From Cenococcum geophilum (Eukaryota): a stretch of DNA of 64,000 nt. Position 1 is the stretch's first letter. Every line of letters starts with the position of its first letter. Positions 10,115-52,292 of this stretch are shown here, piece by piece. The notes beneath the pieces were generated by a model that worked only from the letters and a program-made list of their open reading frames with translations, searched no databases and was not told the DNA's origin. The DNA lies in contig CP158635.1 of NCBI GenBank assembly GCA_050273025.1, forward strand, positions 12,028,001-12,092,000, given 5' to 3'. A program made the position numbers and the translations under genes.

Positions 10115-12307
10115 TAAATATAAACAAAAGTCTAGTTCTATTAAATAAATGTCCTTATTTAATATACATTAAACAATCTTGCGAATCTTATAGCTCGTCT
10201 TATTATTTATATATACTATTTTTATATTTTAGTGATACTAAATAGTAAATAGATTATTATAACTTATAGGAAACCACTATACGACCCTTTTAACCTTCGA
10301 TTTCAGATTTGGTTAGACTCTTAGCCTTTATAACTACATATATTATACTAATACAATCTCTAAAATACACAATATCTTTTTACTTGGTTTTAATAAAAAT
10401 ATAATTACCTAAGACAAAAAGCTAAATATTAAAGATCTAGTAGCTAATTAATATAAATATCTTATTAAAATCTAAGTAAATAAATCTATTATTATATTAG
10501 CGACCTAAGCTGCGTACACTTTTAGAGCGGTTATTAGTAGCCATCTATATAAATGTATAAAAGAGCTTATATTTAGAGTCTAGTCCCTAAAATAGAGCAA
10601 TCCTTTAAGTTTTTACTTTATAATTATAGTATCCTTCTAGAAGCTATATAATATATAGAAGCTACCCTACTATTCTAATCTCTATAGCGAATAATAGGAT
10701 AGTCCCGTATAATTTAAGGTTAAGTTAATTTTTATACAGTCCCTTAATTACGGCTCTTATTTTAGAATTATAGCTATTATTAGCGTTTAAGTATAGGTTC
10801 CTTATAAATCTACTTCTTTTCTAGATAATAAAGACTATAACGGTATTGCCCCTAGTATCGCGATACCACTAAGATATATAAAAGGGGTGCGACTGCATAA
10901 ATAAGGTATAGCTTACTGTAAGAGTATATATATTAGGTCCCGCCGCGCTTACAACAAGTTCGCAAGCACTCTTAGTCTTTTTGGCCGTATGGCGACGTAA
11001 AGGCGGGCCACGTTACAATTGTGCTTGCGAACTTACTGGGGCCAGGTGTTGTGGGTTTAATCCCCATCGGTTACTTCGCTCTGGTACAGTTTAACGCACA
11101 TCCATACGATAAGGCGTCAGTAGAGATTCCGATCGCTTATGTTACTAGGGACTAACTAATATGGTAATACTCTTGGCGTTTAATCCCTGTGGAGGCCCAA
11201 ACGGGCGCATAGAGGAATCCCTGTGAGCGCTCGGGGACGAGCGCGTAGAGGAGAGGGCAATTGTAAGAGTATATATATTAGGTCCCGCCGCGCTTGCGAC
11301 AAGTTCGCAAGCACTCTTAGTCTTTTTGGCCGTATGGCGACGTGGAGGCGGGCCACGTTACACTTACTCCTAAAATGTAAAGATAAACGTACTAGCTAGC
11401 TCGGGGCTTCTAAGGTCTTAATAGTTGTATATATATATATATATATATATATAGCATCCTAAATAGGTATCTCTTTCCTATTAAGTGTTTTAAAGGCTAT
11501 TATTCGTACTATTGCTTAATTTAGTAGCTTTCTATACTTAATATTGCGGTATAGCACTTACCCAAATTATAGAACGCCTATAAATATCTATAGGTATATT
11601 ACTAAGAATAAATATATTGTTAGCGACGTTAATAACTCTTTAGATAGACTGTAAAGATATATAGCAGCTGTAACTATAGCCGCGAGTATTAAGTAGAGCT
11701 TTAAGAAGATTTCGTAGACGTATTAACATATATTAGCGACTAAAAAGAGCAATATAATAACTATAGCGATAGTAGCCTGCTTATTAGCTTATATCTATTT
11801 CCTAAGATTAAGTTAACTTACTATTAGCGCCGCTATATCTAACTATATACGTAGGTTAGGCTTATATAAAGATATAGCCGCTACTATATAGATAAAGCCT
11901 TTAACTATAGCTACTCTTCCTAACTATTAGTATATCTAGGCATATACACTAAGCCTAATTCTATAGCGGCTAGTAATAGTATTTATCTAGCCTCCTAATA
12001 ACAGCGGTATAAGATTAATTATAAATATTAGCCTAGAGCGTCTTATTAGCCTAGAAATATCTTTAACTTAAAATAGTAACGTAAAGAACGTTCCCTACTA
12101 AGAATGCCAGAATTAAAACTATATTAAATTGTGTTGTCTTTTTAGAGCCTCTTAAGTATCGATTAACTATAGATAAAATAGGTGCTTAAAAAAATATAAT
12201 ATGGCGTAAATGCGAGTACATTTAATTATTATTAATACTAGACAGCTAATAATAGATAATGCGATAAGGCCTCTAAGGCCCACTAAATACTACTACGTAA
12301 TATCTAT
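10115..12307 (-). pseudogene. RIP-inactivated ferric reductase / NADPH-oxidase-like (FRE) gene, interrupted by a TRIM
   Basis: The minus strand gives, in order: (M)DIT**YLVGL; INLIPLLLGG; IY**LGRVAIVKGFIY; YVYEIFLKLYLILA; RP*KPRAS*YVYL; QSHPFYIS*W; RAVIKGLY; YGTILLFAIEIRIVG*LLY; T*RIALF*; IELDF. These de-RIP to the FRE heme, FAD (HPF) and NAD (EGPYG, ATGIGIAGQLPY) motifs. Ends approximate. Confidence 0.85.
10917..11362 (+). mobile_element. TRIM (miniature LTR retroelement, 446 bp)
   Basis: 101-bp TG...CA LTRs at 10917-11017 and 11262-11362. 5-bp TSD CTTAC on both sides. Polypurine tract AGAGGAGAGGG just before the 3' LTR. 244-bp non-coding interior. Confidence 0.93.
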
Positions 12308-12660
12308 AGTAAAAATAGTGGATATGCAAATCCTAGGAACGCGATATATATTCGCCATTTATACCTTATATTTTAACTATAGGTCGCGGCTTAGAATACA
12401 CTAATATTAGTTATAACTTAGAAAGGTAGGGGGCTGGAAAAGGGCTCTTTGCTAAAAGCCAAGAGTTTTTTTTAAAAAAATTTTTATACTAATATACGGC
12501 CGGCGTCCCAAGACTAGAATATTAAGAATACTTACGCTTTATAGTATACGGTATAGCAAAGTAGAAACAGTCTATTAAGCTCTATAATAAACAATTAAAG
12601 AGGTAGTTAGATAGCTTAAAAAGTAAATACTATTAGTACGGAAAGCTAGACAATATTAAT

Positions 12661-13670
12661 AATAATTCTTCTTTAATTAACGTCTAATACGGATGCTATC
12701 TAGCCCCACGCAGACTACTCCGTATATAAGGGAAAAGTAATATTAACGGGAAAAAACCCTTACTGCTGGGGGGGAGGAAAAACCCTATAAGCCACCTTAG
12801 TAGGATAAAAAACCCCATTTGCTATATCCGCATATAGCAGCGGCCCTATAGGCCTACAGCTATATCCTATCCTCCTTAGATATTTAAACTCCTTAGGAAC
12901 CACTGCTTCCTTCTCTAGCTTATCTAAGCTAGGGTTTACTACGTCCCAGCTAGGCCTTACCACTTAATTACTGTGTCTTACTATTATCTCCTATATCTTA
13001 GCCATCCCCTATATACTATCTCTTATTTAACTATTGCTATATACGCTATACCTCCCCCCCCCTAGGGCCTATTAAAGGCGTAAGGGGGATTTATCCGTTT
13101 TAACTACTATAATACTAATAAGCGAGCGGGATATTATATATTTAGGTATCTTTTATACCTAGGCCCCAGCTAGGCCCTTTCTAAGGGTTACTACTCCGTT
13201 AAAAGAAAATAGGGAAAACCGTGGGTCGCAATCTAGGCTGCTAGGTAATATTTAGTAGAAAAAACGGCGAGTAACCGTATACTCCGCGGGCGATCGCCCT
13301 AGGGGTTAAGAGGGGCCGTATATTTACTTATTGCTTATTTATTCGCGATCGCTCGTTTATTAATATAAGAGGTCGTTAATGCTTTCTATTAGGGGTTAGG
13401 GGATGCTATTAAATGCCGTTTATCTACGTTGGATTATATAGGTGCCTTAATAGGAGAATAGCGTAGCTGAATTATAGAGGGCCATAGTAGTAGTTTTTGA
13501 GATCTTACCATCTAAAAATTTTTTACTACCGCCTATAACGCTCATAACCACGACTACTAGGTCCTATCGCACGCTATATAACGTCTCTGCGTTAGCTCTA
13601 AGTCTGAACTTTAAAGACCTAGGTTCGTAGCTGTCACTACGTATAGGTGCAGAGTCCGTTTTTGACGGCC
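12661..13670 (-). mobile_element. About 1.0-kb non-autonomous non-LTR retroposon, copy 1
   Basis: Inverted copy of 43362-44380. 15-bp TSD CTAGACAATATTAAT at 12646-12660 and 13672-13686. Short (ATT)n tail. No RT motifs seen. Confidence 0.88.
13585..13670 (-). ncRNA. Putative HDV-like self-cleaving ribozyme at the retroposon 5' end (copy 1, RIP-damaged)
   Basis: GGCCGTC(P1) AAAAACGGA CTCTGC(P2) ACC(P3) TATACGT(L3) AGT(P3') GACAGCT(P1') AC GAAC CTAGGTCT-loop-AGACTTAG(P4) AG CTAAC(J4/2) GCAGAG(P2'). The order and spacing fit the HDV double pseudoknot. Confidence 0.72.
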
Positions 13671-16600
13671 ACTAGACAATATTAATTATTTATAATTATA
13701 AAAAACAAGAGATCTATATATATATTAATAGATTAAGAGTTATAGTGGCTGTCTAGGGAGCAAGTTATAAGTAGGTAGTTAAGTTATAAGCGTCTTTATT
13801 TTTAACGTCTAAGTAGCTAGCATATCTTAAGTTTATAAACGAGCTTCCTGTAAATATAGAGAGAATTAGGTTAGAAGTATATTCTAAGTCTATAGGTGTA
13901 GGAAGGAAGAAGAGATTAAAAAAGGTAGCAAAACGATTGCATCTAGGGTATTGACATTTAAAGAAGGGATATCGTTAGTTGTAAAAAATGCGCTAATCTT
14001 TCCGAAACTATTATCGTTTAATTTAACTATACTAAAGAGGAGAAGGCGTAATTAGGCTTAGCTAGGGATTATCTTATAAATTAGACCCCTGGTAGATTGT
14101 TAGTATATACGCTATAAGCGTATATATATACTGCCTTTTCTCTATAAGGGTCTAAGAGCTTATTGTCCTAGCTTTAGTAGTAGCTTAAAGTTTTAAAATC
14201 CTGTCGCAATCTTACCTTCCTGTATATCTTATATAAGTTATTTTTTTTACCTAAAAATTATAATTATATCGTTGCCTTACCGCTTAGTTAGTAGAGAGCT
14301 ATTTTTTATAGTATAATACGAACCGTGTACTATAGCTCTACTATTAAGTTCTTATTACTTCTAATATAAATAAAAAGGCTATATCTAAACCTAAGAACCT
14401 CGCTATTATACTAGAAAGTCGTCTTTAGCCCTATAGCTGCTATAGAGCGTAAACTTATATAACGTCGCCACCCTAGTTAGTACCTCTAATTAATAAGATC
14501 GATAATCCTAGTTAGTGCGAAATAACCCCGCACTTCTTATATAATAATTACGGGATATATTTAAGATAAGTCTGTAGCTGTTATACCTATAGCTAATACG
14601 CCTATAGCTAGTATACCTATAACTTAGCGTTATCTTAAGAATATTTAAAACTAAGTAAATGCCTTAGGCCGTAAAGCTATAGGCTCTATCTACGTTACCC
14701 TATTTTTTTGCTTTGCGCTCACACGTTTCTGCTAAACTATCTATATATTACGGGACGGGGGTAGTAGCTATAGAGTGTATGTATTTAAGGAGTCTATAAA
14801 ACGTTACGCGATTAATCGTAAGGAGGTAATATACCTACGCGTAACTAATATAAGCTGTACGCGAGGTATACGCAAGAGCACGGGGCTCTCCTATAGAGGC
14901 CCCTGCGGTAGGGTTTTATAATACTACCCCCCCTTCTATAAAGGCGGAGCTTTAGTAACGCTATGGTTATTATATATATATAAAAGGGACACTTAAGGTA
15001 TAGAAATAAAGAAAAGGGGGGTATTGCTAAAGGCTTAAAATAATGTTATATAATAAGGCTTAGCATTTAAAAATCTAACTAATTAGATAACTTTAACCGC
15101 TGGTTAAAGTTTCTAGACATTTTAACGATATTCTAGTTACGTAATCGCACTTTACCGCAATTTAACGGCAATTTAACGGTAATTTACCCTTAGGTGGTAA
15201 TATATAACAGTTTAACTCTATAAGGGCTTCTATAGAGGATTAGGTATAAAATCCCTACTTAGGCCCAGTTTCTATAGGTTCGCGTAATAAAAGTCGCTAA
15301 TTAGGTCCTTTATATTTTTAAAGTCTTCCTATAGTTGCTATTCTAGCTATTTTATATTAAATCCTATATATATAGCTCTATAGTAGAGCCGTTATCCTCT
15401 ACCTTTACTAAAGTATTTAGAGTTAATAATTTATTTAATAGTCTACTCCTTATAGTTCTTATCTTTATTTTTATCTTAAATTAGTACTAGTAGGAGGTTA
15501 GGCTATATCTACCCTAGTAAGGGGTTAGGCTAATAGAGGTATAGTAGCTATAGGTAAAATACGGGCTATATCCCGTGGGTGGCTAGGGTAGGTAAAAGTT
15601 TTAGCTTATATATAGCTCCCCTATTAATAACTTATTTAATTAAATAGGGGCTAAGGTTCTTATAATTAAGTGACTTTATAGGCCTTTACGTAGAGATATT
15701 ATATATATCTAGCTATACCTAGTCGCTAATACGCATCTCTAGTGGTGGCGTTTTATAATAGTTAGCGAAGTAAGCCTACTTTACTTAAGCCTAGGCCATT
15801 TCTCCCTTATAGTAGTTAAGTAGATTTTTTATACGGTTTATATACTAGTTGGTAAGTAGTATCTTAAGGCGTTTTCTATATAGTGGTTTCTTATTAATAG
15901 GTTCTATTAGCTCTATACCAGATTAGGGGTAAGTCCTATAGTGGTTAAGATATAGTTATTTAGTACGAATTTACCTAGTAGGAGGTAATCTACCCAGTTA
16001 TTTTAACTATAGGCGACTACCTATTATAGGTATGCTTTTATACTAGCATTAGCGTTTTCTAGTTACCCAGTAGTTTTATAGTAGAAGGATGTAAATATCT
16101 TAACAGAGATGCTAAGGCGTTGGTAGATTTATCTCTATATATTAGAGTTAAATTATATACCTCGGTTAGACGTAATTAAGTTAAGTAATCTATATAGTTA
16201 GTAAACTTCGTAAAGAAAGGCGTTAGTAACGTTGCTAACGGCTACGTCTTTAGTTAGGACGTAGTGGCGCTCCTTTATAAGTTAGTATATTATTATAAGG
16301 ATATTCTTATAGGTACGGCTATATTATTTATAGGGTGGTATATTAATAATAAAATCTATAGCAATATCTGCCTATTGTTGCATAGGTACTAATAGAGGGT
16401 ATAGTAGTCCTTAGTACTTTATATTAAAGGCCTTAGCGCGCTTATAACTATAGCAGGCGCCTATAAAGCGTTTAACTAAGTCTATTATTTTTAGCTAGAA
16501 GTAGTATTGGCTAAGAAGTTCGTAAGTTCCTCCTCTGCCTAGGTAGCCGCTTAATTAGAGGTTATAGGCCATTTAAATTAGTTACTGTTATAGATTTTTA

Positions 16601-17133
16601 AGTTAGGGATAAATAGGCGGCCTCTATAATAGAGCCTATTCTCTTTTACTTTTAAGGCTGCTATATTAATCTAGCCTAAGCTTTAAAGGTTAGTAGGTAG
16701 CGTACAAGCGCTAGCGGTCTTTGCGATAATAAGTTAATATAATAATAGGTTAACAGAGGTGTTATATACTATAGTAATAAGCTTATTAATTTTAGGAGGT
16801 AACTTTAGTTCTATAGTATAAAGTTAAGGTATAATTAGCTCTATTATAGGTAGTATACCTAGGGCTACATTTTATGCTTTTAGGATTATTTATTATTAGA
16901 ACTAATTATAAGGGTTATCTTTAAACTAAGGAAGGTCTTATAAGCGGCGTATTAGGCTATTAGGTTTAGTACCTTATACTCTTAATCTATATATAATTTT
17001 AAAGTTAAAACTAGAGAGGAACTTATTTTAATGTACTTAGTATTAGTTTAGCTACTTTATAGTTATAAAGTACTTAAGGTTGCGATAGTCCGTAAGGACT
17101 TTAGTTGGCTAGTTAGGCTCTACTAAGGAAAGT

Positions 17134-17338
17134 TATAACCGACTACGGTACCCTGCCAAAACACTACCTTGTCTTGTCTCGTATCACTATATACACCTTA
17201 ACTCGCTCACCAACTCGGCCACTAACTCGGTTAATTACCCCTTATTTCCTACGCCTTCTTTATATATATATACTACTTTAATTTCCATAGATTTACAATT
17301 AAGTTGCTCGTTTAATACCCACACTGTAAAAGCTTACA
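17134..17338. mobile_element. Solo LTR (205 bp) of a family not otherwise seen here, inserted in Gypsy A1 RNase H
   Basis: T(G>A)TAACC...CTTACA with TSD AAAGT on both sides. The empty site is present in Gypsy A2 at about 45836-45840. Confidence 0.88.
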
Positions 17339-17630
17339 AAAGTTCTAGTTAGAATTCTTTAAACGCTTATATAATTATAAGAAGTTCTTTATTATAGATC
17401 TTATAGTTACACTCTTATAGTATAAGCTTAAACGAGTAGAATGCGACTAGGTAAAGGAGACCGTTATTACCTATTTAGGAAAGGACGTCTACGTTAACGT
17501 AGTCTAAGGAGTCGGTTTTAAGATAGAGTTATTATCCTAGTATAAAGTAAGCTAAGATAGGTGCTTTGGTAAAGGCATTTTTAAGGTTTTAAAACGCCTT
17601 CTTATATTTAGGCGTTTAGGTAAAGTATAG

Positions 17631-20600
17631 TGTTCGTACTAACTTAATAGCACGAGTAAGTCGTATCCACGGGCACGAAATACATGTAGTATCGTATGCT
17701 TGTTTGGATGGTGACTGTCGATTATATAAAGCAGACTACGTGGTCTATATACTGATGCACCTCCCCCCTAATTAGTTAGTGCTTTATAAGTACACCAGAC
17801 GCGTAAGCGAGTAGTTAGTGCACTGAACGCGTAAACGCGTACCTGGTGTACCGAACGCGTAAGCACGCGTTTAGTACAACAGGTGCTGTAATTATACACT
17901 AGCAGTACTTGAAAAATGAAACCACCTATATACAGCCTCCGTAATTTCTTTAATAAAACCATAGAACACAAAGGAAAATACATAGGAAATCTCCCCCGAG
18001 GTGCCGTCTAGGCTGCCTTTCAAACGGTACCTCAAGCTGGCCGTAAGTCCTGCTTACGGTCCATAAAATAAACCGTACGGCCTTTTAACGGGCAGTAAAT
18101 CAGATTTTAAGGGCCGCCAAGGCGCTAGTGCTAAGCGAGCCAATGGCGATTTTCCATGCCCGGCATGGAAAATCGTAATTGGTTAATTTAACCATTGTGG
18201 CAGAATATAGCAGAATTCGGCAGGTCACGTAAGTCCACCAAGTTCTATTACAGCTTTCCACCGTTTTTCCACCTAATAGCTTACAGTCCGTAGAATAGGC
18301 TATACAATAAGCCGTACGGCCTTCTAACGGGCCGTAGGCGTACCATAGGTACTCCGTTAGTCCCGTTCTACCTATTCTATAACTTTTAGGTTAAGCTTAT
18401 TTATATTAATTAGGGTTTTAAGGGCTTAACACGGCTTTGCCTTAGTTATAGCGTCCGCTGGGTTATCTCCACTGCTAATCCATTTAACCTCTATAATCTT
18501 ATGTCGTTTATAGGCCTAATATAAGCACATTAGGTCGACCATAAGCCTCTTCTCTTATATCGTACTTAGTTTAACTAGGCAGTCGTAAAGGGACTTTAAA
18601 TCAGTGCATAAAACTAGGGGTAACTGCTCTAGTTATAGAATCTTCTAGACCGTTAATTTAATTACGGCTGCTATATTAAATCCATAAGCTAGTATATATA
18701 GTTTAGAAGCTAGTATACTATGGGTTACTTATTTACACTTAATTAAAGACCAGTGCAGTATATTTACGTCCTAATTATGGTCTGTAAGTATAATTACAAA
18801 GCCAATTTGTAATAATAGGTCTTTATTATTAGCAAAGGAGGCGTCTATAAATGCCAGTAGGCTAAGGGAATTCAGGTCTAGTGGTATAAAAGTAAGTCCC
18901 CTTGCTGCATTATCAATTTGCCACTAAATGCGCTTATTAAGCTGCTTAATATTTTCTTCTTGCGGATCTACTGCCTAGGCCGTAAAGGATAAGTCGTAGG
19001 CAGATTTGGGTTAGCAGACTATAGCAATATAGGCGCCTCTTACACGCTGTGCAGCGTATTAGTCCTTTATATTTACGGTCTTATAGGTCTCTTTATGGGA
19101 ACTAGTAAGGTCCGTAGGCTTTACTATAATAAGCTTTAGGTTTTAAGCTTAGCGTTCCTAAGTTAGCTTAATTAGGTTACCCTTTTATATAATTAGGCCT
19201 CTATTAAACTTAATTAGATTCTGCTTAGTTAACTACTCTTATAGCTTTACCAAGAACTTGGCCTTTTATAGTTTAGTTTCTTTAGCGTCCGTAAAGGTCT
19301 AGTCTACTAGGAATAGGGTATTGTCTATTTAAAGTCCAATAATACTAAGGCCGTTTAATGGGCTATATAGGAGGCAGGGGTCGTAGGTTAACTATTCTAT
19401 TTTAAGCTTACTAACGTGATACTAGTGGTACGTCTTAAACTAGTAGTTCTTAGCTTCTAGTACTCTATAAAGAGGTTTTATAACCTATAAAATTGTTCCT
19501 AGTTATAGGTTAAGCTTATGGGGTAGTCGTATAAAGATGTCCCTACTTAGATAGGTATTAGACTACATATAGGCTTATGAGATGTCCCATAAGTATAGGG
19601 CTATGGGTTTAGTTTACTGTAGTCCCGGCACAAGTGCAAGTATAATTCGTTAGCTAACTTATTAAATTATAGGCGATTGCGTAAGGACTAAGTCCTTTCC
19701 CTTATCGTTATAAGCTTATACGACAAGCCTTAATTTCTTAAAGGCTTTATTAGTACTAGGGTGCTTAATCTTGTTAATAAAGCGTAAGTTAAATATATAG
19801 ACGCCTTGCGGGACGTCTTTCTCTATTATAACCGTAAAGACACCCTTTTTAAGTAGTCCGTTAATCTCTTTACGTCGTAAGTCTGTAAATGGGGTTTCCT
19901 ATACTAGAACTAATATATCCGTAGGCGGAGATTACCTTGCGGATATTCCTACGGAGGTTAGGTAATTTTTTATTATGGTGTTCTTAGTTATAGGGTGCTT
20001 TTAGGGGCGTCCTCAACCACGCTTTATAGTAGGTTTAGTAGGTTTAGTAGGTTTAGTAGGTTTCTAGGGGACTTTTAGGGTAGGCAAGGGTGCTTCTAGT
20101 TCGTCTAATTTAGCGGGTGCTTCCGGTTTGTCTAGTTTAATAGGTGCTTTTAGTTTATCTAGTTTAACGTCATAGGTGTTTTCGGGCTAAAAGTAGGGTT
20201 TTACGGACGTGCTTCTAAAGCTGGTTGGCCTACTAGGAAGCTATACGCAGCACGTCTCATTTTCTACGGCTAGTAGACGATAAGGTCTATTTTAACTGCC
20301 GCTTTTACGCCATACAAGGACTTCAGAGTTAAGCGGGAGGTCATGTACTGGGGTCGTGTTAGGTCCATTGCGGTAGTACAGGGCGTTATTAATAGCTTAC
20401 TTAGCCCGTAGCTTAACTATTTTAGTTATTACCTTCTATATTATAGCTGCTCGTTCCGTAATAGACAAAGCAGGAGAGCCCAGGTTGCTTATTCTTAGGT
20501 AAGCTCCATAAACTAAGAGGGTAGGTACTAGTCCATTAGGGCCAGCGGTGTCGTTAATAGCTTTTACGGCTATCTATAAAGCCAGTTCCTTTTAGATGTC

Positions 20601-23600: not shown

Positions 23601-24098
23601 TAAAGAGGTTAAGGATAGGGGTTCCGTATAGGTTTATATTCGCATCTATAACTTCCGGTAAACCGTACTAAGACTTAAATAAGTATATAGAGTTGGAGAT
23701 AAGTCCGTAATCCCCAACTTCCGACCTTTTAGTAGGTTGTACTAGGAGTTTAAACGGGTGGTTGCTGTTATATATATCGCTTGGGGGGAGGTATTAAGTG
23801 ATTGCTGATCTGTGCGCGCTTACTAATCAGTGTTTGTACTAACTTAATAGCACAAGTAAGTCGTATCCACGGGCACGAAATACATGTAGTATTATATACT
23901 TGTTTAGATGGTGACTGTCAATTATATGAAGTAGACTACGTAGTCTATATACTGATGCACCTCCCCCCTAATTAGTTAGTGCTTTATAAGTGCACCAAAC
24001 GCGTAAGCGAGTAGTTGGTGTACTGAACGCGTAAACGCGTACCTGGTGTACCGAACGCGTAAGCACGCGTTTAGTACAACAGGTGCTATAATTATACA
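17631..24098 (-). mobile_element. Ty1/Copia retrotransposon, probably GalEa clade, nested in Gypsy A1
   Basis: 268-bp LTRs 17631-17898 and 23831-24098. TSD TATAG. Minus-strand gag-pol at about 23380-18350 with CFVCGKEGC knuckle, integrase before RT, YDPCL and RNase H CTDLKSLYDCL...EKRLMVD...NPADAITK. CTGATTAGT follows the 5' LTR. Confidence 0.92.
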
Positions 24099-36829: not shown

Positions 36830-36999
36830 TGCTAGCTGTCATTCTGGTGTCTTCCTAGGTAGGGAGGATATAAGGAAGGGTAAAAAATAAGGTGGCTACC
36901 TAGGTGTATATAGGGGGTATACTTGGCAGAGGCACGTGTAGAGGCTATCGGGAATATAGCGGGGACCCGATAGTAGTGTGTCGCGCGCATACACATAAA

Positions 37000-37163: not shown

Positions 37164-37168
37164 CTGGC

Positions 37169-37434
37169 CATCAGGAATTTTTTTTTTAGGCATATTGTTG
37201 CAAGCGAAAATTGGGGTCTGCAAAACCTGCGTAAGTCGCAATTTTGGTAATTTGTGGCGATTTGCAGCAATTTGCTACAAACACATAGATAAGGCAGGCG
37301 CGTGCATAGGTAGCCTATGTGTTTGTAGCAAATTGCTGCAAATCGCCGCAAATTGCCAAATTTGCGACTTACGCAGGTTTTGCAGACCCCGATTTTCGTT
37401 TGCAACAACGTGCCCAAAAAAAAATTTCCTGATG
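37169..37434. repeat. Near-perfect 266-bp foldback with about 120-bp arms
   Basis: CATCAGGAATTTT...CTACAAACACATAG, a short spacer, then CTATGTGTTTGTAG...AAATTTCCTGATG. Confidence 0.92.
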
Positions 37435-37436
37435 TA

Positions 37437-42390: not shown

Positions 42391-43361
42391 TATTACGGAA
42401 CGGGGGCAGTGGCTATAGAGCGTATGTATTTAAGGAGTTTATAAGACATTACGCGATTAATTGTAAGGGTTAAGGGGGTAAGGAGGTAATATACCTACGC
42501 GTAGCTGATATAAGCTATACGCGAGGTGTATATAAGAGCACGGGGCTCTTCTATAGAGGCCCCTATAGTAGGGTTTTATAATATTACCCCCCCTCCTATA
42601 GAGGCGGAGCTCTAGCGACGCTATAGTTACTATATATATATAAAAGGGACATTTAAGGTATAGAAAAGAAGAAGGGGGGGTATTGCTAAAGGTTTAAAAC
42701 AATATTATATAATAAGGCTTAGCATCTAAGAATCCGACTAATTAGATAACTTTAACCGCCGGTTAAAGTTCCTAGATATTTTAACAATATTCTAGTTATA
42801 TAATCGCACTTTACCGCAATCTAATAGCAATTTGCCCTTACGTGGTAATGTATAACGGTTTAACTCTATAAGGGCTCCTATAGAGGATTGGGTATAAAAT
42901 CTCTGCTTAGGCCCGGTTTCTATAGGTTCGCGTAGTAAAAGTCGCTAATTAGATCCTTTGCATTTTTAAAGTCTTCCTATAGTTGCTATTCTGGCTAATT
43001 TGTATTAAATCCTGTATATATAGCTCTATAGTAAAGCCGTTATCCTCTGCCTTTACTAAAGTATTTAAGTTAATAATTTATTTAACGGTCTACTCCTTAT
43101 AGTTCTTGTCTTCGTTCTTATCTTAGATTAGTACTAGTAGGGGTTTAGGCTATATTTGCCCTAGTAAGGGGTTAGGCTAATAGAGGTATAGTAGCTATAG
43201 GTAAAATATAGGCTATATCCTATGGGTGGCTAGAGTAGGTAAGAGTTCTAGCTTATATACGGCTCCCTTATTAATAACTTATTTAATTAAATAGGGGCCA
43301 AGATTCTTATAATTAAGTAACTTTATAGCCCTTTATATAAAGATATTATATATATCTAGCT

Positions 43362-43447
43362 AGCCGTCGAAAACAGACTCTGCATCTATACGTAGTAATA
43401 GCTACAAACCTAAGTCTTCGAAGTTTAGACTTAGAGCCAACGCAGAG
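43362..43447 (+). ncRNA. Putative HDV-like ribozyme (copy 2, more damaged)
   Basis: Same layout as copy 1. Perfect 8-bp P4 CTAAGTCT/AGACTTAG, P2 CTCTGC/GCAGAG, J4/2 CCAAC. P1 and P3 carry transition mutations. Confidence 0.65.
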
Positions 43448-44380
43448 ACGTTATATAGCGTGCGATAGGACCTAGTGGTCGTGGTTGTGAGCATTATAGG
43501 CGGTAGTAAAAAATTTTCAGATAGTGAGATCTCGAAAACCACTACTATGGCCCTCTACAATTCAGCTACGCTATTCTCCTATTAGGGCACCTATACGATC
43601 CAACGTGGATAAACGGCATTTAATAGTATCCCCCGACCCCTAATAGAAAGCATTAATAACCTCTTATATTAATAAATGAGTGATCGTAAATAAACGAGCA
43701 ACGAGTAAATATACGGCCCCTTCTAACCCCTAGGGCGATCGCCCGCGGAGTATACAGTCACTTACTGTTTTTTCTACTAAATACTACCTAGCAGCCTGGA
43801 TTGCGACCTACGGTTTTCCCTATCTTCTTTTAACGGAGTAGTAACCCTTAAAAAGGGCCTAGCTGGGGCCTAAGCATAAAAGATACCTAAATATATAATA
43901 TCCCGCTCGCTTATTAGTATTATAGTAGTTAAAACAGATAAATCCCCCTTACACCTTTAATAGGCCCTAGGGGGGGGGAGGTATGGCGTATATAGTAATA
44001 GTTAAATAAGAGATAGTATATAGGGGATGGCTAAGATATAGGAGATAATAACAAGACACAGTAATTAAGTGGCAAGGCCTAGCTGGGACGTAGTGAACCC
44101 TAGCTTAGATAAGCTAGAGAAGGAAGCAGTAGTTCTTAAGAAGTTTAAACATTTAAGGAGGACAGGATATAGCTATAGGCCCATAGGGCCGCTGCTATGT
44201 ACGGACATAGCAAACGGGGTTTTTTATCCTACTGAGGTGGCTTATAGGGTTTTTCCTCCCCCCCAACAGCAAGGGTTTTTTCCCGTTAATATTACTTTTC
44301 CCTTATATACGGAGTAGTCTACGTGGGGCTAGTTAGCATCCGTATCAGATGTTAATCAAAGAAGAATTATTATTATTATT
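43362..44380 (+). mobile_element. About 1.0-kb non-autonomous non-LTR retroposon, copy 2
   Basis: TSD TATATATCTAGCT at 43349-43361 and 44380-44392. (ATT)5 tail. The empty site is visible in Gypsy A1 at about 15700-15715. Confidence 0.9.
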
Positions 44381-47300
44381 ATATATCTAGCTATACCTAG
44401 TCGCTAATACGTATCTCCGGTGGTGGCGTTCTATAGCAGTTAGCAAAGTAAGCCTACTTTGCTTAAGCCTAGGCTATTTCTCCCTTATAGTAGTTAAGTA
44501 GATTTTTTATACGGTCTATATGCTGGTTAGTAAGTAGTATCTTAAGGCATTTTCTATATAGCAGTTTCTTATTAATAGGTTCTAGTGGCTCTATACTAGA
44601 TTAGGGGTAATAACCCTTATTCGCGAAGAACGGGGTAAGTCCTATAGTAGTTAAGATATAGTTATTCGCTATAAATTTACCTAGTGGGAGTTAATCTACC
44701 TAGTTATCTTAACTATAGGCAACTACCTGTCGTAGGTACGCTTTTATACTGGTATTAGCGTTTTCCGGTTATATAGCAGTTTTATAATAAAAGGATATAG
44801 ACATCTTAACGGAGATACTAAGGCGTTAGTAGATTCGTCTCTATATATTAGAGTTAAATTATATACCTTGGTCGGACGTAATTAAGTTAGGTAGCCTATA
44901 TAGTTAGTAAACTTTATAAAGGAAGGCGTTACTAACGTTACTAACGGCTACGCCTTTAGTTAGGACGTAGTAGCGCTCTTTTATAAGTCGGTATATTATT
45001 ATAAGGATGTTCTTATAGGTATAGCCATATTATTTATAGGGTGGTAGGTTAATAACAAAATCTATAGCGATATCTGCCCATCTTTATATAGGTACTAGTA
45101 GAGGGTGCAGTAGTCCTTAGTACTTTATATTAAAGGCCTTAGCGCGCTTATAACTATAGTAGGCGCCTATAAAGTGTTTAACTAAGTCTATTATTTTTGG
45201 CTAGAAGTAGTATTAGCTAAAAAGCTTATAGGTTCCTCTTTTACCTAAGTAGCCGCTTAATCAGAGGTCATAGGCCATTTAGATTAGTTGCCGTTATAGA
45301 TTTTCTAAATTAGGGATAAATAGGCGACCTCTATAATAGAGCCTATTCTCTTTTACTTCTAAGGCTACTATATTAATCTAGCCTAAGCTTTAAAGGTTAG
45401 TAGGTAGTATATAGGCGCCGGCGGTCTTTACGGCAATAAGTTAATGCAGTAATAGGTTAATAGAGGTGTTATATACTATAGTAATAAGCTTATTAATTTC
45501 GGAAGGTAACTTTAGTTCTATGGTATAAAGCTAAGGTATAGTTAGCTCTATTATAGGTAGTATACCTAGGGCTAAATTTTATACTTTTAGGATCGTTTAT
45601 TATTAGAACTAATTATAGGGGTTATTTTTAGACTAAAGAAGGTCTTATAAGCGGCGTGTTAAGCTATTAGGTTTAGTACCTTATACTCCTAGTCTATATA
45701 TAATTTTAAAGTTAAAACTAGAAAGGAACTTATTTTAATATACTTAGCATTAGTTTAGCTACTTTATAGTTATAAAGTACTTAAGGTTGCGATAGTCCGT
45801 AAGGACTTTAGTTAGCTAGTTAGGCTCTACTAAAGAAAGTTCTAGTTAGAATTCTTTAAACGCTTATATAATTATAAGGAGTTCTTTATTATAGATCTTA
45901 TAGTTATACTCTTATAGTATAAGCTTAGACGAGTAGAATGCAACTAGGTAAAGAAAACTGTTATTACCTATCTAAGAGAAAACGTCTGCGTTAACGTGGT
46001 CTAAGGAGTTGGTTTTAAGATAGAGTTATTATCCTAGTGTAAAGTGGGCTAGGATAGGTGCTTTAGTAAAGGCATTTTTAAGGTCTTAGAACGCCTTCTT
46101 ATATTTAGGCGTTTAGGTAAAGCGTAAGTACGTTTTTCTTTCTTTTACAGAAAGGCCCTTTATTCGTATTATTGCTATAAGTAGTACTACTACGCCTAAG
46201 AAGTTATATATAAATTTCTAATAAAAGTTAGCGAAACTAAGGAAGGCTTATACGTCCTTAATACAGTTAAAGGCTTGCTATTTAGTAATTATATATACCT
46301 TCTTAGGGTCCATATAGACACACTTAGTAGTAACAATTAGTCTAAGGTATTTTACTTCTATAACTAAGAATTCGCATTTCTTTAAGTTAATATAAAGTCC
46401 TACGTCCCTAAGGCGTTATAGGACCTTTTAAACGTGTTTAGTATGCTTAAAAAGGTTATTACTATAAATAAGTATATCGTCCAGGTACGCGGAGTAGAAG
46501 TCATTAAGATAGTCCTATAAGGTGTTATTAATATAGCTTTAGAAGGTGCCTAAGCCGTTATATATGCTAAAGGGTATAACGGTATATTTAAATTAGCTAA
46601 AGCGCGATATAAATGCGGTTTTCTATTTATTACCTTCCCGTATTTAGAGATAGTTAAAGGCGGTAATAATATTAAGCTTAGTATAGATTTTAGCTTAGCT
46701 AAGCCGCTTAAGGGTCTCCCATATAAGCGGTACTGGGTATTAATTTTTAATTATAATAGCGTTAAGTCCTTTATAGTTAATATAGAATTAGATACCTCCT
46801 CCTAGCTTCTTAATAAGAAGAATAGGGATAGCTGCTAGTAATATGCTAGGACGAATAAACCCTTTATTAAGGTGCTCGTTAATATACTTTCTTATAACTA
46901 GAAGTTCGTCTTTTAATATTAGGTAGGGTCTCTTATAAGGTAGCGTTTTTCCTTATTTAATATTAATAGTATAGTTATTAGGTTAATATAGGGGGAGTAT
47001 ATCTACGCCCTTTTATAAGTATATATTAATAAAGTTATAATACCTCTTAGAGAGGAGCTTACGGAGTTCTTTATTAGTAAGTCCTTTTTTAAGTTTTATA
47101 AACTTCTTAAAGTCTAAAGGTAAAAGTCTGTGGAGTTCCGTAGGGGCGTCGTCTTCTAAAAGGTTAATTATATTTATCCTATTACTATAGAGGACGTAGT
47201 CCTATTCTTTATTAAGTTTATATAGTTATAATTAGGAAGCTATAGCAATGGTCTAGCCTTTCCTATATACTATGCAGTAAAAGGCCGCGGCATTTACGTA

Positions 47301-48984
47301 GTAGTAGTTAGTTATAGGTAGGGTAATAAGGGGTTTCTTAGGTTAATATCCTAGTAAGTAAATAGAGGCGGCTAGGCTATGTCCTAGGCAAGTCTCTCTA
47401 TAGTATTTAGAGTTAAAGGTTGCTTTTCTCTTTTCCTAGTTAATAGTGGGGTTATATTATTTAAGCTAGCTTATTTTAAGAATAATAGAGTAGTTAATAA
47501 GTAGTATAATATAGGCCTAGAGCTCTTCCTAGTGCCCGTTTATATCTAAGTAGAGTTATACTATATAGGTAATCTTCTATACGGTATAACTATTATTAGC
47601 GAGTTATAAGGCGCGGGCTTTAGTAAGGGGTAAAGTAGGTAGGTTATAAGTATATACAAGTTAGGTATTTATAAATTAGTTAATAGCTCCGTAGTTAATT
47701 ATAGAACGGCTTTTATATTATTTTATAGTAGTAGTTCCTATTATAGGTAAAACTATCTATTTCCGTCCGTTTATTTTTACTAAGTTATCTATTAAGTAGG
47801 CCAATATATAGATCCCTCTATTATTAGGGCGTTCTAACCCGCGACTTAGGGCTAGAACTTAGCGTTTTTCGTTTCCGTATCTAATTTTACTACTATTACT
47901 ACGTCTTTATCTTATATAGTAGTAGCATATAGCAATATATTTAGTGTTTAGGGTATTAGGTTAGGTATTAAGCGGTAAGTACTAAACCTAGCTATTAGGT
48001 AGTTTAGGTTATCGTAATAATAGCCTTTTTAATAGCATTTATAGCAGCGTCCTAATTTCTAAAGTAGCTCGCGCTCTCCGTCTAGGAGTTTTTATAAAAA
48101 GGTTAGTATAGAGAGGTTAATGTTAGCTCTAGTGGCACCTAAGGTAGTGGGCGTTGGTGGCTTAGTATATATAGGTTTAGTAGGCCTAAAGGGCTTCTAT
48201 AGAGAGGTCTTTAAGTAAGGGTTAGTAGTAGCAATTTAATTTAGTTGTTATTTAATCTTCCGTAGGGCTGCTACTATCTTATAAATATTATTATAGTTAT
48301 AGCTAGCGGCTGCGTAACTAAGGCGATAAGTAACTTTTTTAAGGAAATCCTCCTAGTCTTTAGTATCGTCTTAGGTAAGAGCTCTGGTATATTTCTAGGA
48401 TTTAATATAAAACTTATTAAATAATTCAGTAGGGCTTATCTTTAGGGTACGTAGTTTAGCTTAGTTAGTGGCTAGTAGGTTATAGTCGTAGTATATTAGG
48501 TTAAAATCGTTAAGAACTTCTTAGTAAAACTACCACTTCTAGGGGCCACTAGTCTCCTATTAGGCGAAGAGTTTATTAAATAGTGTACCCTTTATTCGCC
48601 CGATAATATAGCTAATCTTAATATCTTTTATAGGAAAAAGGTAGGCGCTCTAAGTTAGTTTCTCGCAAATTTGTATCTTCTAGTAGCTATATTCCTTATA
48701 ATTTCCTTAAAAGACTAGGGGATTAGGGTAGCGTGCATTAAATCCTATAGTAGTAGTTTAGGTCTAATTATTATAGCTTTTATTATTACTGTTTTAATAG
48801 GGATTCCTATTAGGTAAAGCTGCTTAGCGCTAACCCTCCGTTAAGTATTAAGTAGGTAAAGTTACTAGAGGCGTAAAGACTTAGGTAGCGTTATATATAG
48901 TAAAGAGGTATTTAGTATTATTATAAATATGCTTATTAAGCTAGGATTATAGGTATTTAATTATGCCTTCTTTTTTAGTAATTA

Positions 48985-50832
48985 ACGTATTCCACTACCG
49001 AGCTGGCAGAACACTAAGCCGGTAAATTTTTCTTAGCACCATCAACACCATGTATAAAAGGCAATGCATTAACAAAATAATACTAATCTATCTTAGTAAG
49101 AAGGCAGGATTAATCTAGCACTTTAGGCCTATACTTTAGGCTATTTTTAGAGCATACTACGCACTATAGATGCTTTTAACGTACGATATTAGCGACTCTA
49201 TAATTAGCTTTACGGAATTATATTATAACTGTAAATATGGCTGAACTGCCTAAAGCTTATAGCGACCAAAGAGTAGACGATTGTACGATATATACTTGAC
49301 CTAAATTCGCGAGGGTTTGTGCCCCGGCTGTGTAAGGTAGCAGATATAGTAGATAAACTGTTAACTACGCGTGGTGGGATACTAGTAGATAAGAACTGGC
49401 CTAGATAATTCGTATCTCGTATAGAGGAGCTTAAGATGGCTTTTAATTGAGTAAAGGACCGCTAAAGGATACTCTAGGAAGATCTAGAGGTTATTAACGT
49501 GTGGTTTAAGCTCGTACGGGATATAAAGACAAAGTACGGCGTTTACAACGACGATATTTATAACTTTAATAAGATAGGCTTCTAGATAGGTATAATTGGC
49601 TCTATAAAAGTTGTTATAGGCTTAGAAAGATATGTAAGGCCTAATCTTGTATAGCTAGGTAATTAGGAATAGGTTACAGTAATCTAGAGTATCTGCGCTA
49701 CTAGGTATACAACCCCACCATTTATTATCTATAAAGGACGCGTTTATATCTCTATATAGTATAAAGAAGCAAATATACCCTACAATTAGAAGCTCTTAGT
49801 CTCTAAAAATGGCTAGACAAATAACGCGCTTAATCTTAAGTAGTTAAAGCACTTTAATAAGCATATAAAGACGCGTTAGGTGGGGTTGTATAGGCTACTT
49901 ATTCTTAATGGCTATAAAAGCCACCTTAACTAAGATTTTAAGGATTATTGCCTCGTATAAAAGATCCTTACCCTCTATATACCTGCGTATTTATCGCATA
50001 TACTATAGCCACTTAATATAGTATGCTTCTCGCCGTTAAAGATAAAGTACTCGTAGCGCGTATAAGACTTAGCACGTAAACGCGTCTACTATATTAATAA
50101 AGAAGGCTTCCTTCTAGCCTTTAAACACGCGTTTTTCGACGTGTTTACGTATAATAACTGCAAGAAGGCCTTTAAGGCATCTAGACTAGTCCCTATTAAC
50201 GCGCAGGTTGTTATTAATTGTCTTAATATACGGTTACGTACCCTACTACTAGCACCCCTACTAGAAACACTATGGCAGTTAAAGACTCTAAACAATATAT
50301 ACGAATTTGGATTATAATTAAAGCTAGTAAGCTAATCCTTTATATAATTACTAATAATAGCCTAAGAAGGCTTCTTAAAGCACATAAAAGGAGCTAAAGA
50401 AATGCTATATAAGAATGTACTTATAGAGGCCCGCGTATAAGAGCTTAAAGAGTAATTAATAAAAATAACTAAGCGTAAAGCGCGTAAACGGAAGCGGATC
50501 TAGTATGGTGGTACGATGGAGTATAGTATAGCAGCATTGTACGTAGCTACTAAAGTATCTATCGCACCTCAGCTATCTAAGAAGGCTTATAGTAGTGGTG
50601 GTTAAGAAAAAGCCTAACTAACTTAACGGCACTGTAGAAATTGTGGAGAGACTGGCTATAACGCTCGTACATGTAAAAAGGATGAAGAAGAAGCTTCTAA
50701 ATCTAATGCGAGTATATTGGACGTATATTCTCTAGCTAGTAATAAATTATTTTATATTTTATATTTAATGTTAGTAGTGCTAAGGAAAATCTACCGGCTT
50801 GGTAGTTCTACCAGCTTAGTGGTGGAATACGT
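48985..50832 (+). mobile_element. Fot1/Pot (pogo-like) DNA transposon, full length (1848 bp), RIPed, nested in Gypsy A2
   Basis: TA|ACGTATTCCAC... and ...GTGGAATACGT|TA TIRs. Transposase relic from about 49064 with YNFNKIGF, LLILNGYKSH, HIL*PLNI and a C-terminal CRNCGETGYNARTC knuckle. Confidence 0.94.
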
Positions 50833-51614
50833 TATAGCAATTAGTATAATCTTATTCTTCTTTAACTGTTAGACGTCACGTTTAGACACGTGAAGGTTAT
50901 CTTTAGTTTCTTAATATGTGTTATTAGCGAGCGCCTTACGAGCTTATAGGTCTTAGATAATATCACGATCTTAAGTAGTATGTATTTTAGCTTATATAAG
51001 CTTTAGGTAGTAGTTCTATAAAAGGCGGTAGTATTTATTAGGGTTTTATGCTACTATTTTTACAAATATCTTGGCGTCTTATATTTTAATTTTAATAGGT
51101 AATAGCCCTTTTATTTACTTATCCGTAGTTATATAGTTAATAAAAGATAAAATATTATTAGTGTCTATTTCCTTAGGGGTTAGGGCTAATAAATTAAATT
51201 CTTTTAGGATTAATTGGCGTCGTAGGTTAAGTATAGGTATTAGATTATTCTTTAGATTTAATATAGTAGCTAGTAAAAAATATTGTCTTACTATTATAGG
51301 TTCCTTAGAAGTATAAAGTAAGGTAATTTATAAATATACTGCTTTTAGCAGCGCCTACAGTATTATAAAGATGTAGAATTAGTTATAGGCTAAGCGTTAG
51401 TAGTAAAAAGGCGTAACGTAATGTTATGGAACGGGGGCAGTGGCTATAGAGCGTATATATTCAAGGAGTCTATAAAACGTTACGCGATCGATCGTAAGGG
51501 TCGAGGGCGTAAGGAGGTAATATACCTACGCGCAGCTAATATAAGCTGTACGCGAGGTGTATGCGAAAGCACGGAACTCTCCTATAGAGGCCCCTGCGGT
51601 GGGGTTTTGTAACA

Positions 51615-52292
51615 CTTACTAACTTACGCGAAAGAATAGATAATAGCTATAAGATTTACTTAATCGTTTACTCTTATTACTAGCCGTTTATATATAACCT
51701 AATCTGCCGTTTATAACTACCTTCCTAAATAAATAAAGTGGTTCTTAGTTGCAAACCTTTAAGGCCTTTTTTTAAGGCAATTTTAGCTTATCGGCTAGTG
51801 GGCCTTTAATAAACTAAATAAGATTAGATCCTCTAATAAGAAGAAAATAGAAGGGATATAGATAGGGCGTATATTTATAACCGAGAGTATTATAGAGTAG
51901 TTACGGCGCCAGCTAGCTATAAAATCTTTTTAGTACTAGCCAACGGTATCTAGGGCTGCTTTTAGATTATCCTTAACGCTATTAATACCGTATACTATAT
52001 TCTTAATAAAATCTTTTAGCGACGCTATATTATATAGGGTAGTACTAGGATATTCTTTAACGTATTTATAGAGGAAAGAGGTAGAGGGTAAGAGCGGGAT
52101 AGAATCCGGCTATAGTAGTACGTTAATTATAACTTACTAGTTCTATAGCTCTACCTTCCTCTAGTAAGCTTTTACTATCTTTAGCTTAAAATACTTTTAA
52201 ACTCCGGTGCCGTCTATACCCTCCCTACTTTACTTAGAACCCTTTGCCCTTACTCTAGCAAAGAACTAGTAAGGGTCTTTCTTTCTTAGCAT
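51615..52292 (-). pseudogene. 5' part of a DUF3435-like tyrosine recombinase (Starship captain), RIPed and truncated by the Gypsy A2 LTR
   Basis: ATG at 52292: MLRKKDPY*FFARV...GV*KYF...AY*RKVEL*N, intron, YVKEYP...SLKDFIKNIVYGI...TVG*Y*KDFIASWRR, intron, FIKGPLADKLKLP...FATKNHFIYLGR*L*TAD*VIY...RVND*VNLIAIIYSFA*VSK. The last motif de-RIPs to about S.ARVGE, the catalytic Arg box. Recognised from memory of the family. Confidence 0.72.

What the first reader, a model, noticed from the sequence alone, without database searches (positions are those of the whole stretch)
10115..52292. Buried dead Starship: captain and FRE relics under the transposon nest
Seen: a RIPed DUF3435-like 5' gene fragment (52292 to 51615) and a RIPed ferric reductase (12307 to about 10115), both on the minus strand, with FRE downstream of the captain. 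Established: Starships have the captain first, and FRE and NLR genes are recurrent accessory genes. Inference: the non-TE scraps between them (about 9600-14745, 27776-29386, 35353-35454) are cargo, and most of the ~40 kb separating them is later insertion. Heavy RIP of non-TE genes suggests the ship was once duplicated. Boundaries were not resolved.
Basis: partly seen in the sequence, partly recalled or inferred. Interest (0 to 1): 0.8.

Follow-up and report, generated by a model that had tools for sequence, protein, structure and literature searches.

The report
RIP-killed Starship captain stub and ferric reductase
Two dead genes buried in a fungal transposon graveyard are real: the front quarter of a Starship "captain" recombinase, still attached to the element's own front end, and a whole ferric reductase gene. 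That they belonged to one giant element is plausible but not shown.

Summary
Both relics exist at the stated coordinates. 52292-51615(-) matches the first ~187 residues of DUF3435 recombinases: phmmer gave 29 hits, best full-length E 1.2e-14, to a 773-aa Colletotrichum protein carrying PF11917. 12307-~10117(-) is a near full-length, intronless ferric reductase relic (E 5.6e-21; colinear tblastn 1e-39). A 446-bp mini-LTR element splits it. In-frame stops fall mostly on Q/R/W codons, as RIP predicts.

New here: the captain relic keeps its element's 5' terminus at 52851, 559 nt upstream of the ATG. Three relatives with different flanks begin at the same point.

The captain is cut after residue ~187 by LTR element B. 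B has no target-site duplication (AATAC vs CTTAC), and its other flank is a truncated Ty3 element. B is therefore a recombinant, and the remaining ~75% of the captain is absent from the window.

The ferric reductase segment has at least one other RIP-diverged copy in the same genome. In one close relative (L036) a ferric reductase lies 8.9 kb downstream of the captain on the same strand, but only in 1 of 65 loci.

Verdict: a degraded, RIPed Starship-like region. One ship is plausible (~0.5) but unproven, and the 3' end is unresolved. It is a new member of a known kind and of modest interest.

The parts
52293..52851 (-). 5' terminal region of the Starship-type element. The terminus TAATTATAGACC... 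starts at 52851, the conserved subterminal motif GGTTAGTTAGC lies at 52812-52802, and the region ends at the captain ATG.
   Evidence: A RIP-tolerant alignment pairs window 52860->51616 with L041 9435-10694 (760 identical, 151 RIP-type, 238 other). L036/L032, L041 and L045 share sequence from the same point but have different upstream flanks. Coordinates were read.
51615..52292 (-). RIP-killed 5' part of a DUF3435 tyrosine-recombinase (captain) gene. It covers residues 1 to ~187 with two intron-like gaps and ends at ..ARVGE, where the LTR of element B begins.
   Evidence: 29 hits; P0002 carries PF11917; all tblastn hits fall in 51591-52415; last matched residue 187 at 51617; stops fall on Q/R/W.
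42391..51614 (.). LTR retrotransposon B, of the same family as A. It carries nested inserts: the ~1 kb repeat F2 at 43336-44388 and a TIR element with a TA duplication at 48984-50833. Its flanks, AATAC and CTTAC, do not match, so it is a recombinant of two copies.
37437..42390 (-). Ty3/gypsy element G, lacking its gag and 5' LTR. It is cut at 42390 by the left LTR of B.
   Evidence: Pfam RVT_1 9.6e-19, RT_RNaseH 7.5e-13, SH3_Tf2-1 9.8e-11 and Integrase_H2C2 1.1e-4. No matching LTR was found in 51617-55625.
35453..37436 (.). Non-autonomous TIR element with 31-bp terminal inverted repeats and a TA duplication. It contains GC-rich tandem repeats and a 266-bp palindrome.
29387..35347 (.). LTR retrotransposon C, with 364-bp LTRs and target-site duplication CTTAA.
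27771..29386 (.). Non-TE scrap S3 (1.6 kb), RIPed, with no recognisable gene.
   Evidence: No Pfam hit in six frames. No similarity to the 65 related loci.
14746..27770 (.). LTR retrotransposon A, with target-site duplication CTATA. LTR element E is nested in it at 17631-24098, with duplication TATAG.
13695..14745 (.). Scrap S2. Its stretch 14240-14663(+) is homologous to a stretch 0.8-1.2 kb downstream of a related captain in L035/L033.
   Evidence: 262 identical, 90 RIP-type and 61 other positions; blastn 2e-30.
12644..13694 (.). Repeat F1, a copy of the insert inside B (91% identical, reversed). It is not cargo.
   Evidence: A contig of run X1 joins 12660 to 13700 without it.
10115..12307 (-). 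RIP-killed, intronless, near full-length ferric reductase (FRE) gene, with a frameshift in a (TA)n run near 11440.
10917..11362 (-). 446-bp mini-LTR (TRIM-like) element inserted in the FRE at the G-V-S codons. It has 104-bp LTRs (TG..CA), target-site duplication GTAAG, is GC-rich and is barely RIPed.
52852..55497 (.). RIPed sequence outside the element's 5' end (flank S5).
   Evidence: Homology to relatives stops at 52851. No Pfam hit.
55498..61574 (.). A third LTR of the A/B family (55498-55625 plus 61567-61574), split by LTR element D (55626-61561, target-site duplication CTGTA).

Best explanation
The tract is the wreck of a Starship-type giant transposon in a RIPed, transposon-rich AT-isochore.

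Shown:
- The element's own 5' terminus survives at 52851.
- 559 nt inside it, the captain (DUF3435 tyrosine recombinase) gene starts and reads toward lower coordinates.
- RIP has converted many Q/R/W codons to stops.
- An LTR retrotransposon inserted right after the codons for ..ARVGE (residue ~187).
- That LTR element now has non-matching flanks and abuts a truncated Ty3 element.
- The other ~75% of the captain is nowhere in the window.

Inferred:
- Two copies of that LTR family recombined. This deleted the rest of the captain and an unknown length of DNA.
- The intronless ferric reductase relic downstream on the same strand was cargo of this ship.
- After nested transposons are stripped, the relic lies only a few kb beyond the junction.
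- The FRE segment still has at least one RIP-diverged sister copy in the genome. That fits a formerly multi-copy mobile unit that RIP silenced and retrotransposons then colonised.

The element is dead: it has no catalytic domain and no intact gene.
For: - Captain homology.
- 5' terminus shared with L036/L032, L041 and L045, which have three different upstream flanks. A second subfamily with at least 10 different flanks ends about 40 nt from the same GGTTAGTCAGC motif.
- FRE homology and colinearity.
- RIP-type stops and substitutions.
- B has no target-site duplication, while A, C, D, E and the mini-LTR element each have perfect 5-bp duplications. The LTR copies differ only by transitions.
- G is truncated at B.
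- A second ~90% version of 12039-12393 exists in run X1. Run X5 shows 12039-12660 in the same way. X1 contigs bridge 12660->13700 and 9006->9633. The differences are overwhelmingly transitions.
- L036 is one of the closest full-length relatives. It has host core genes (DOCK, Vps39, Gon7), then the element end, then the captain, then an FRE 8.9 kb downstream on the same strand.
- In print: captain position and orientation are conserved, and FRE is a recurrent Starship gene (PMC9156397, passages read).
Against: - The junction at B means the captain stub and everything to its left were not originally adjacent. A translocation would leave the same signature as a deletion.
- No DUF3723, patatin or NLR relic was seen. 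Pfam also missed the proven FRE, so this absence is weak evidence.
- An FRE is present in only 1 of 65 related loci. 23 of those loci have at least 8 kb of downstream flank.
- The L036 FRE is only ~30% identical to the best relatives of the window's FRE.
- None of the scraps matches cargo of relatives, except S2. S2 matches L035 in the wrong orientation for colinearity.
- There is no 3' boundary, no TIR and no empty site.
- RIPed repeats continue beyond both relics.
Confidence: 0.5

Rival explanations
1. There are two unrelated wrecks. The captain stub with its terminus is the remains of one element, either a lone DUF3435 gene or a different ship. The FRE lies in another repeated unit, either a second ship or a segmental duplication. 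Both accumulated in the same RIPed transposon graveyard and were brought close together by the recombination at B.
For: - B has non-matching flanks, and G is truncated at B.
- An FRE is near only 1 of 65 relatives of this captain.
- No cargo is shared with relatives.
- Lone DUF3435 genes are said to be indistinguishable from captains (PMC12134995, passage read).
- The FRE segment is a repeat in its own right.
Against: - Same strand and correct polarity: the captain is first and reads toward the FRE.
- The distance is short once nested transposons are removed.
- L036 shows the same captain-then-FRE layout.
- Both LTR partners of the recombination were in direct orientation, as expected for a simple intrachromosomal deletion.
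Confidence: 0.38
2. The FRE is an ordinary resident host gene. RIP leaking from neighbouring repeats killed it, and it has no mobile-element history.
For: It sits within about 3 kb of the non-RIPed host flank. It is hemmed in by repeats (F1, the mini-LTR element and palindromes) from which RIP could spread.
Against: Contigs of the probable source run and of another study's run carry a second, ~90% identical version of the FRE 5' region and its flanks. A run of a third study lays several distinct versions on FRE positions. A single-copy host gene would not do this.
Confidence: 0.07
3. The similarities are chance in AT-rich RIPed sequence, and there are no gene relics.
For: Raw translations gave no Pfam, PDB or word-index hits.
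Against: - Library-wide phmmer E-values reach 7.6e-25.
- tblastn E-values reach 1e-39, with colinear alignments over more than 450 residues.
- Reversed-query controls score 64-81, against 89-263 for the true matches.
Confidence: 0.01

Closest known systems
Degraded Starship and 'Starship-like' regions, including the Derelict regions of Macrophomina phaseolina (Gluck-Thaler et al. 2022, PMC9156397; passages read)
   Same: A DUF3435 gene is colocalised with a conserved Starship accessory gene (FRE) and no target-site duplications are resolved. That is the paper's wording for 'Starship-like'. Decay continues after the element's death.
   Different: Here the captain is not lost but decapitated, and its native 5' terminus is intact. 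Both genes are RIP-mutated beyond Pfam detection. LTR retrotransposons fill the interior, and an LTR-LTR recombination scar lies inside the region.
Element-wide RIPed Starships of Gaeumannomyces tritici type A (Hill et al. 2025, as cited in PMC12134995; passages read, original paper not read)
   Same: A Starship-family element subjected to RIP along its length.
   Different: Those elements were delimited as whole elements. This one has only a 5' end, and it is unproven that its interior is one element.
Metagenome locus L036 (with L032, L041 and L045): un-RIPed relatives of the same captain lineage
   Same: They share the terminal sequence TAATCG(C/T)GCA.., the subterminal GGTTAGTCAGC motif, the ~560-nt leader and the captain exon-intron layout. 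L036 also has an FRE downstream on the same strand.
   Different: The relatives are intact and not RIPed (L036, L032 indices). The L036 FRE is a distant paralogue of the window's FRE. No other cargo is shared.

Membership tests
Starship (captain-led giant transposon) | Encodes a DUF3435-family tyrosine recombinase (captain) | tested here: met
   The window piece is homologous to residues 1 to ~187 of DUF3435 proteins. P0002 carries PF11917 at 54.3 bits against a cut-off of 25.8. The window piece lies N-terminal of the Pfam domain and gives no Pfam hit itself.
Starship (captain-led giant transposon) | A captain with a complete catalytic recombinase domain | tested here: not met
   Nothing beyond residue 187 of P0002, or beyond residue 82 of P0006, is found anywhere in the window. 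This holds for plain tblastn and for a RIP-aware scan with reversed-query controls. The element is dead.
Starship (captain-led giant transposon) | The captain is the first gene at the 5' end and reads inward | tested here: met
   The terminus lies at 52851, 559 nt upstream of the ATG. It was placed by homology to relatives whose flanks diverge at that same point.
Starship (captain-led giant transposon) | Carries cargo, often FRE, DUF3723, patatin-like or NLR genes | tested here: inconclusive
   An FRE relic lies downstream on the same strand, but across a recombination junction. No DUF3723, patatin or NLR relic was seen by Pfam, a test that also missed the FRE.
Starship (captain-led giant transposon) | Both boundaries defined (direct repeats with or without TIRs), with an empty site in another genome | tested here: not met
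   Only the 5' end was found. There is no TIR or inverted subterminal motif in the relatives or convincingly in the window. The single read-laying run covered 1-20000 only.
Ferric reductase (FRE/NOX type: PF01794 + PF08022 + PF08030) | Colinear homology across the transmembrane, FAD-binding and NAD-binding parts | tested here: met
   P0031 aa 1-458 and P0030 aa 48-518 are colinear with 12307-10117. The hits carry the Pfam domains. The Pfam models themselves do not hit the RIPed translation.
RIP (repeat-induced point mutation) | TpA/ApT high and (CpA+TpG)/(ApC+GpT) low (usual thresholds ~0.89 and ~1.03, recalled); C-to-T and G-to-A changes | tested here: met
   The indices are 1.3-2.3 and 0.15-0.95 across 8-64 kb. 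Differences between LTR copies are all transitions. Stops fall on Q/R/W codons, and H>Y, V>I, T>I, G>R, E>K and P>L dominate the substitutions.

The most novel reading that the evidence does not exclude
The whole tract from about 9 kb to 52851 is one dead Starship that was once multi-copy in this species complex. RIP silenced it, and it then served as the landing pad that grew into this AT-isochore. On this reading giant cargo transposons, not only retrotransposons, seed RIPed isochores. The conserved subterminal GGTTAGTCAGC motif, shared by subfamilies with different termini, would be the captain's recognition site.
Probability: 0.25. Interest if true: 0.5.

Novelty: new member of a known kind. 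Interest (0 to 1): 0.33.

Why it matters
Gene- and HMM-based pipelines would miss this Starship wreck, because Pfam finds neither gene. Homology to un-RIPed relatives still recovers it, down to the exact 5' terminus.

The case documents one concrete route of Starship decay. An LTR retrotransposon inserts into the captain, two LTR elements then recombine and remove the catalytic domain, and RIP acts throughout.

It adds little conceptually, because degraded and RIPed Starships are already in print. The terminus and subterminal motif shared by many copies could help define boundaries for this captain lineage.

Tried and rejected
- Raw translations with X at stops gave nothing. This covers Pfam, PDB sequences and two word-index searches. 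RIP destroys words and HMM scores, so these blanks say little.
- No whole genome is held for this window. Earlier scan notes held nothing.
- Idea that the captain stub is the gag of Ty3 element G, continued across B. It was rejected because the stub is DUF3435-homologous from Met1 and no LTR of G lies in 51617-55625.
- 5S rDNA or tRNA as a target site: none found. Only hairpins below the Rfam thresholds turned up.
- Terminal inverted repeat or inverted subterminal motif as a 3' end: none in the relatives' fetched parts, and only chance-level degenerate matches in the window.
- Idea that the L035 subfamily is a compact 3.4-kb captain-only element. It was rejected because homology between the other members runs further at the left end and their right ends are not uniform.
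- The first alignment was too diverse for the search for related loci. It was redone with three sequences.
- Records behind the loci are not held, so L036 could not be extended.
- Transversions in the LTRs to test whether B is chimeric: there are none, so the test is uninformative.
- Runs X6 and X7 laid only ~90% pieces on the RIPed part. Missing cover there is not used as evidence.
- Scraps S0, S1, S3, S4 and S5 showed no similarity to the 65 loci. S6 gave only weak tblastx hits (E about 5e-4) to L023/L024, which were not followed up.
Full report
**Setting.** The window is fungal-type DNA. From about 8 kb to its right end it bears a strong RIP signature: TA/AT is 1.3-2.3 and (CA+TG)/(AC+GT) is 0.15-0.95. 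Positions 1-8 kb look normal and hold a TPR-repeat gene. No whole genome is held for the window, and earlier scan notes held nothing.

**Map of the nest.** Self-comparison, LTR ends and target-site duplications (TSDs) give a clean map.
- LTR element A spans 14746-27770 with TSD CTATA. Element E is nested in it at 17631-24098 with TSD TATAG.
- Element C spans 29387-35347 with TSD CTTAA.
- A TIR element spans 35453-37436 with a TA duplication.
- Ty3/gypsy element G lies on the minus strand at 37437-42390. Pfam gives RVT_1 at 9.6e-19, plus RNase H, integrase and the Tf2-type SH3 domain.
- Element B, of the same family as A, spans 42391-51614 and has two nested inserts.
- A third LTR of that family starts at 55498 and is split by element D (TSD CTGTA).
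- A ~1 kb repeat occurs at 12644-13694 and, reversed, inside B.

**The captain relic.** With stops read as X, the translation of 51615-52292(-) gave nothing in Pfam, the PDB or a word-index search. A full phmmer pass over 1.84 billion representatives gave 29 hits at E<=1e-3, of which 6 were at E<=1e-10.
- 1 of the 29 is a full-length protein with a Pfam DUF3435 domain. This is P0002, 773 aa, from Colletotrichum sublineola, with PF11917 at 54.3 bits against a cut-off of 25.8, on its residues 255-448.
- The window piece aligns to P0002 residues 64-185 and, by eye, from Met1 onward.
- 27 of the 29 hits have no Pfam domain. Those fetched (17 of the 27) are mostly short exon-sized N-terminal fragments. 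One hit, P0024, is a repeat protein and probably spurious.
- Named relatives come from four classes of Pezizomycotina.
- tblastn of all 29 against the window places every significant hit in 51591-52415(-).
It gives signal only at 52103-51617 (113-186 against a null of at most 81). The last matched residue is 187, at 51617.
- The gene therefore ends at ..ARVGE, exactly where the right LTR of B begins. The remaining ~75%, including the catalytic domain, is nowhere in the window.

**The ferric reductase relic.** A search restricted to residues 464-600 of window:10115-12305(-) hit three ferric reductases at E 5.6e-21, 9.4e-21 and 1.8e-10. All three carry PF01794 and PF08022, and the best also carries PF08030.
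- tblastn shows P0031 aa 1-458 and P0030 aa 48-484 colinear with 12307-10269, with no introns. The RIP-aware scan carries the P0030 match to aa 518 of 530 at 10117.
- The gene has a frameshift in a (TA)n run near 11440.
- It is split at its G-V-S codons by a 446-bp mini-LTR element at 10917-11362, with 104-bp LTRs and TSD GTAAG.
- Window stops align with Q, R or W in 18 of 29 cases (P0030) and 19 of 32 (P0031). For the captain the counts are 9 of 16 (P0002) and 8 of 10 (P0001). H>Y, V>I, T>I, G>R, E>K and P>L dominate the substitutions.
- Pfam never sees this proven FRE. Its silence on the other scraps is therefore weak evidence.

A scan of metagenome contigs with an alignment of P0002, P0006 and P0005 returned 65 loci encoding relatives.
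- L036/L032 (one site), L041 and L045 are 82-94% alike from a common point onward, and their upstream flanks differ.
- All begin TAATCG(C/T)GCA.., and about 37 nt further in they carry CCGGTTAGTCAGC.
- A second subfamily, with at least 10 different flanks, begins GGTAGGGTGGCC.. about 40 nt before the same motif.
- The window's minus strand reads ..AACTGTGG|TAATTATAGACCAAAACTCC..CGGTTAGTTAGC. The left part is unrelated to any relative, and the right part is homologous with RIP-type changes.
- The RIP-tolerant alignment runs from window 52860 to 51616 against L041 9435-10694, with 760 identical, 151 RIP-type and 238 other positions.
- The element's 5' end is therefore at 52851, 559 nt upstream of the ATG. 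Positions 52852-55497 are outside flank.
- This is the captain-first, inward-reading layout that the literature calls invariant (PMC9156397, figure legend passage).

**The scar.** A, C, D, E and the mini-LTR element all have perfect 5-bp duplications. B has AATAC on the left and CTTAC on the right.
- These two differ by changes RIP cannot make. The LTR copies differ from one another only by transitions.
- B's left flank is the protease/RT region of G. The gag and 5' LTR of G are not on B's right side.
- B's right flank is the captain, and the captain's continuation is not on B's left side.
- The simplest reading is that two copies of this LTR family recombined, one inserted in G and one in the captain. 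This removed everything between them. A deletion between direct copies fits, and a translocation would look the same.

**Was it duplicated?** One run-finding call and one read-laying run on 1-20000 were allowed.
- In the probable source run (X1), 12039-12393 is covered both by an exact 355-nt contig and by a second contig of the same span with 33 differences. The two contigs have similar depth.
- A run from another study (X5) has exact contigs on 9458-9914 and 11822-12261. It also has a 683-nt contig that follows 12039-12660 with 61 differences and then runs on unlike the window, at the point where repeat F1 starts.
- X1 contigs bridge 12660->13700 (skipping F1, with 24 other letters between) and 9006->9633.
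- Changes are overwhelmingly transitions. A run of a third study (X6) lays several distinct versions on FRE positions.
- The FRE and its flanks therefore exist in at least one further RIP-diverged copy.

**Are the two relics one ship?** Evidence for:
- They have the same strand and the right polarity.
- After the nested transposons are removed, only a few kb of scraps separate the FRE from the G/B junction.
- The FRE is part of a repeated unit.
- L036 is among the closest full-length relatives of the stub, ranked second with L032. In it, host core genes (DOCK, Vps39, Gon7) are followed by the element end and the captain. ORFs without Pfam domains come next, and an FRE lies 8.9 kb downstream on the same strand.

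Evidence against:
- The scar at B lies between them.
- An FRE is present in only 1 of 65 related loci. 23 of those have at least 8 kb downstream and 21 have at least 9.9 kb.
- The L036 FRE is a distant paralogue.
- No other accessory gene was found.
- There is no 3' end, TIR or empty site.
- The one scrap with a relative (S2, 14240-14663, matching L035 13284-13706) is in the wrong orientation for colinearity with that relative's layout.

By the wording of PMC9156397, a DUF3435 gene colocalised with an FRE but without target-site duplications is 'Starship-like'. That is the label the evidence supports. I put one ship at about 0.5.

**Novelty.** Degraded ('Derelict') Starships, lone DUF3435 genes and element-wide RIP of Starships are in print. 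Passages of PMC9156397 and PMC12134995 were read. Other papers were seen only as search listings. This is a new member of a known kind. Its worth is the resolved 5' terminus, the conserved subterminal motif, and a documented decay path of LTR insertion, LTR-LTR recombination and RIP.

Noticed in passing
window 10917-11362: A 446-bp mini-LTR (TRIM-like) element with 104-bp LTRs and TSD GTAAG. It is GC-rich and almost free of RIP inside a heavily RIPed gene. The bin containing it has by far the highest summed contig depth within the FRE in all four runs. It may be too short for RIP, or it may have inserted after RIP acted.
   Followed up: partly
L003-L061 and window 52812-52802: The motif GGTTAGTCAGC lies about 37-40 nt inside the 5' end of captain elements of two subfamilies whose terminal sequences differ. 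It was seen in 15 distinct locus contexts and, RIPed, in the window. It is a candidate recombinase-binding site.
   Followed up: partly
window 14240-14663 vs L035 13284-13706 (= L033): A ~420-bp stretch is 85% identical once RIP-type changes are allowed. In L035 it lies 0.8-1.2 kb downstream of a different captain subfamily, and its orientation does not fit colinearity. The bin has several-fold summed depth in X1, so it may be a low-copy repeat.
   Followed up: partly
window 5787-6110: Contigs of runs X6 and X7 join 5786 to 6111, while X1 and X5 show raised summed depth there. This looks like a ~324-bp repeat (MITE-like) insertion polymorphism in the non-RIPed flank.
   Followed up: no
window 7592-8875: 107-bp inverted repeats (92.5% identical) at 7592-7698 and 8769-8875 enclose a 105-bp perfect-type hairpin at 8438-8542. 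This is a foldback or TIR element at the edge between unique and repeated DNA. Rfam gives only sub-threshold miRNA-hairpin matches.
   Followed up: no
window 9085-9571, 37169-37434, 63537-63915: Long palindromes of 266-490 bp with arms 73-88% alike. A contig in X1 and X5 joins 9006 to 9633 without the first one.
   Followed up: no
window 36219-36831 and 62088-63007 (also 37001-37164): GC-rich tandem repeats (57% and 53% GC) stand out from the RIPed surroundings and are related to each other.
   Followed up: no
window 48984-50833: A 1.85-kb TIR element with a TA duplication (Tc1/mariner-like ends) is nested in LTR element B and absent from its sister element A.
   Followed up: no
window 210-539: A weak, sub-threshold match to a PiggyBac-type transposase domain (DDE_Tnp_1_7, E 1.4e-4, 21.7 bits against a cut-off of 22.4) in a RIP-like first kilobase.
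   Followed up: no
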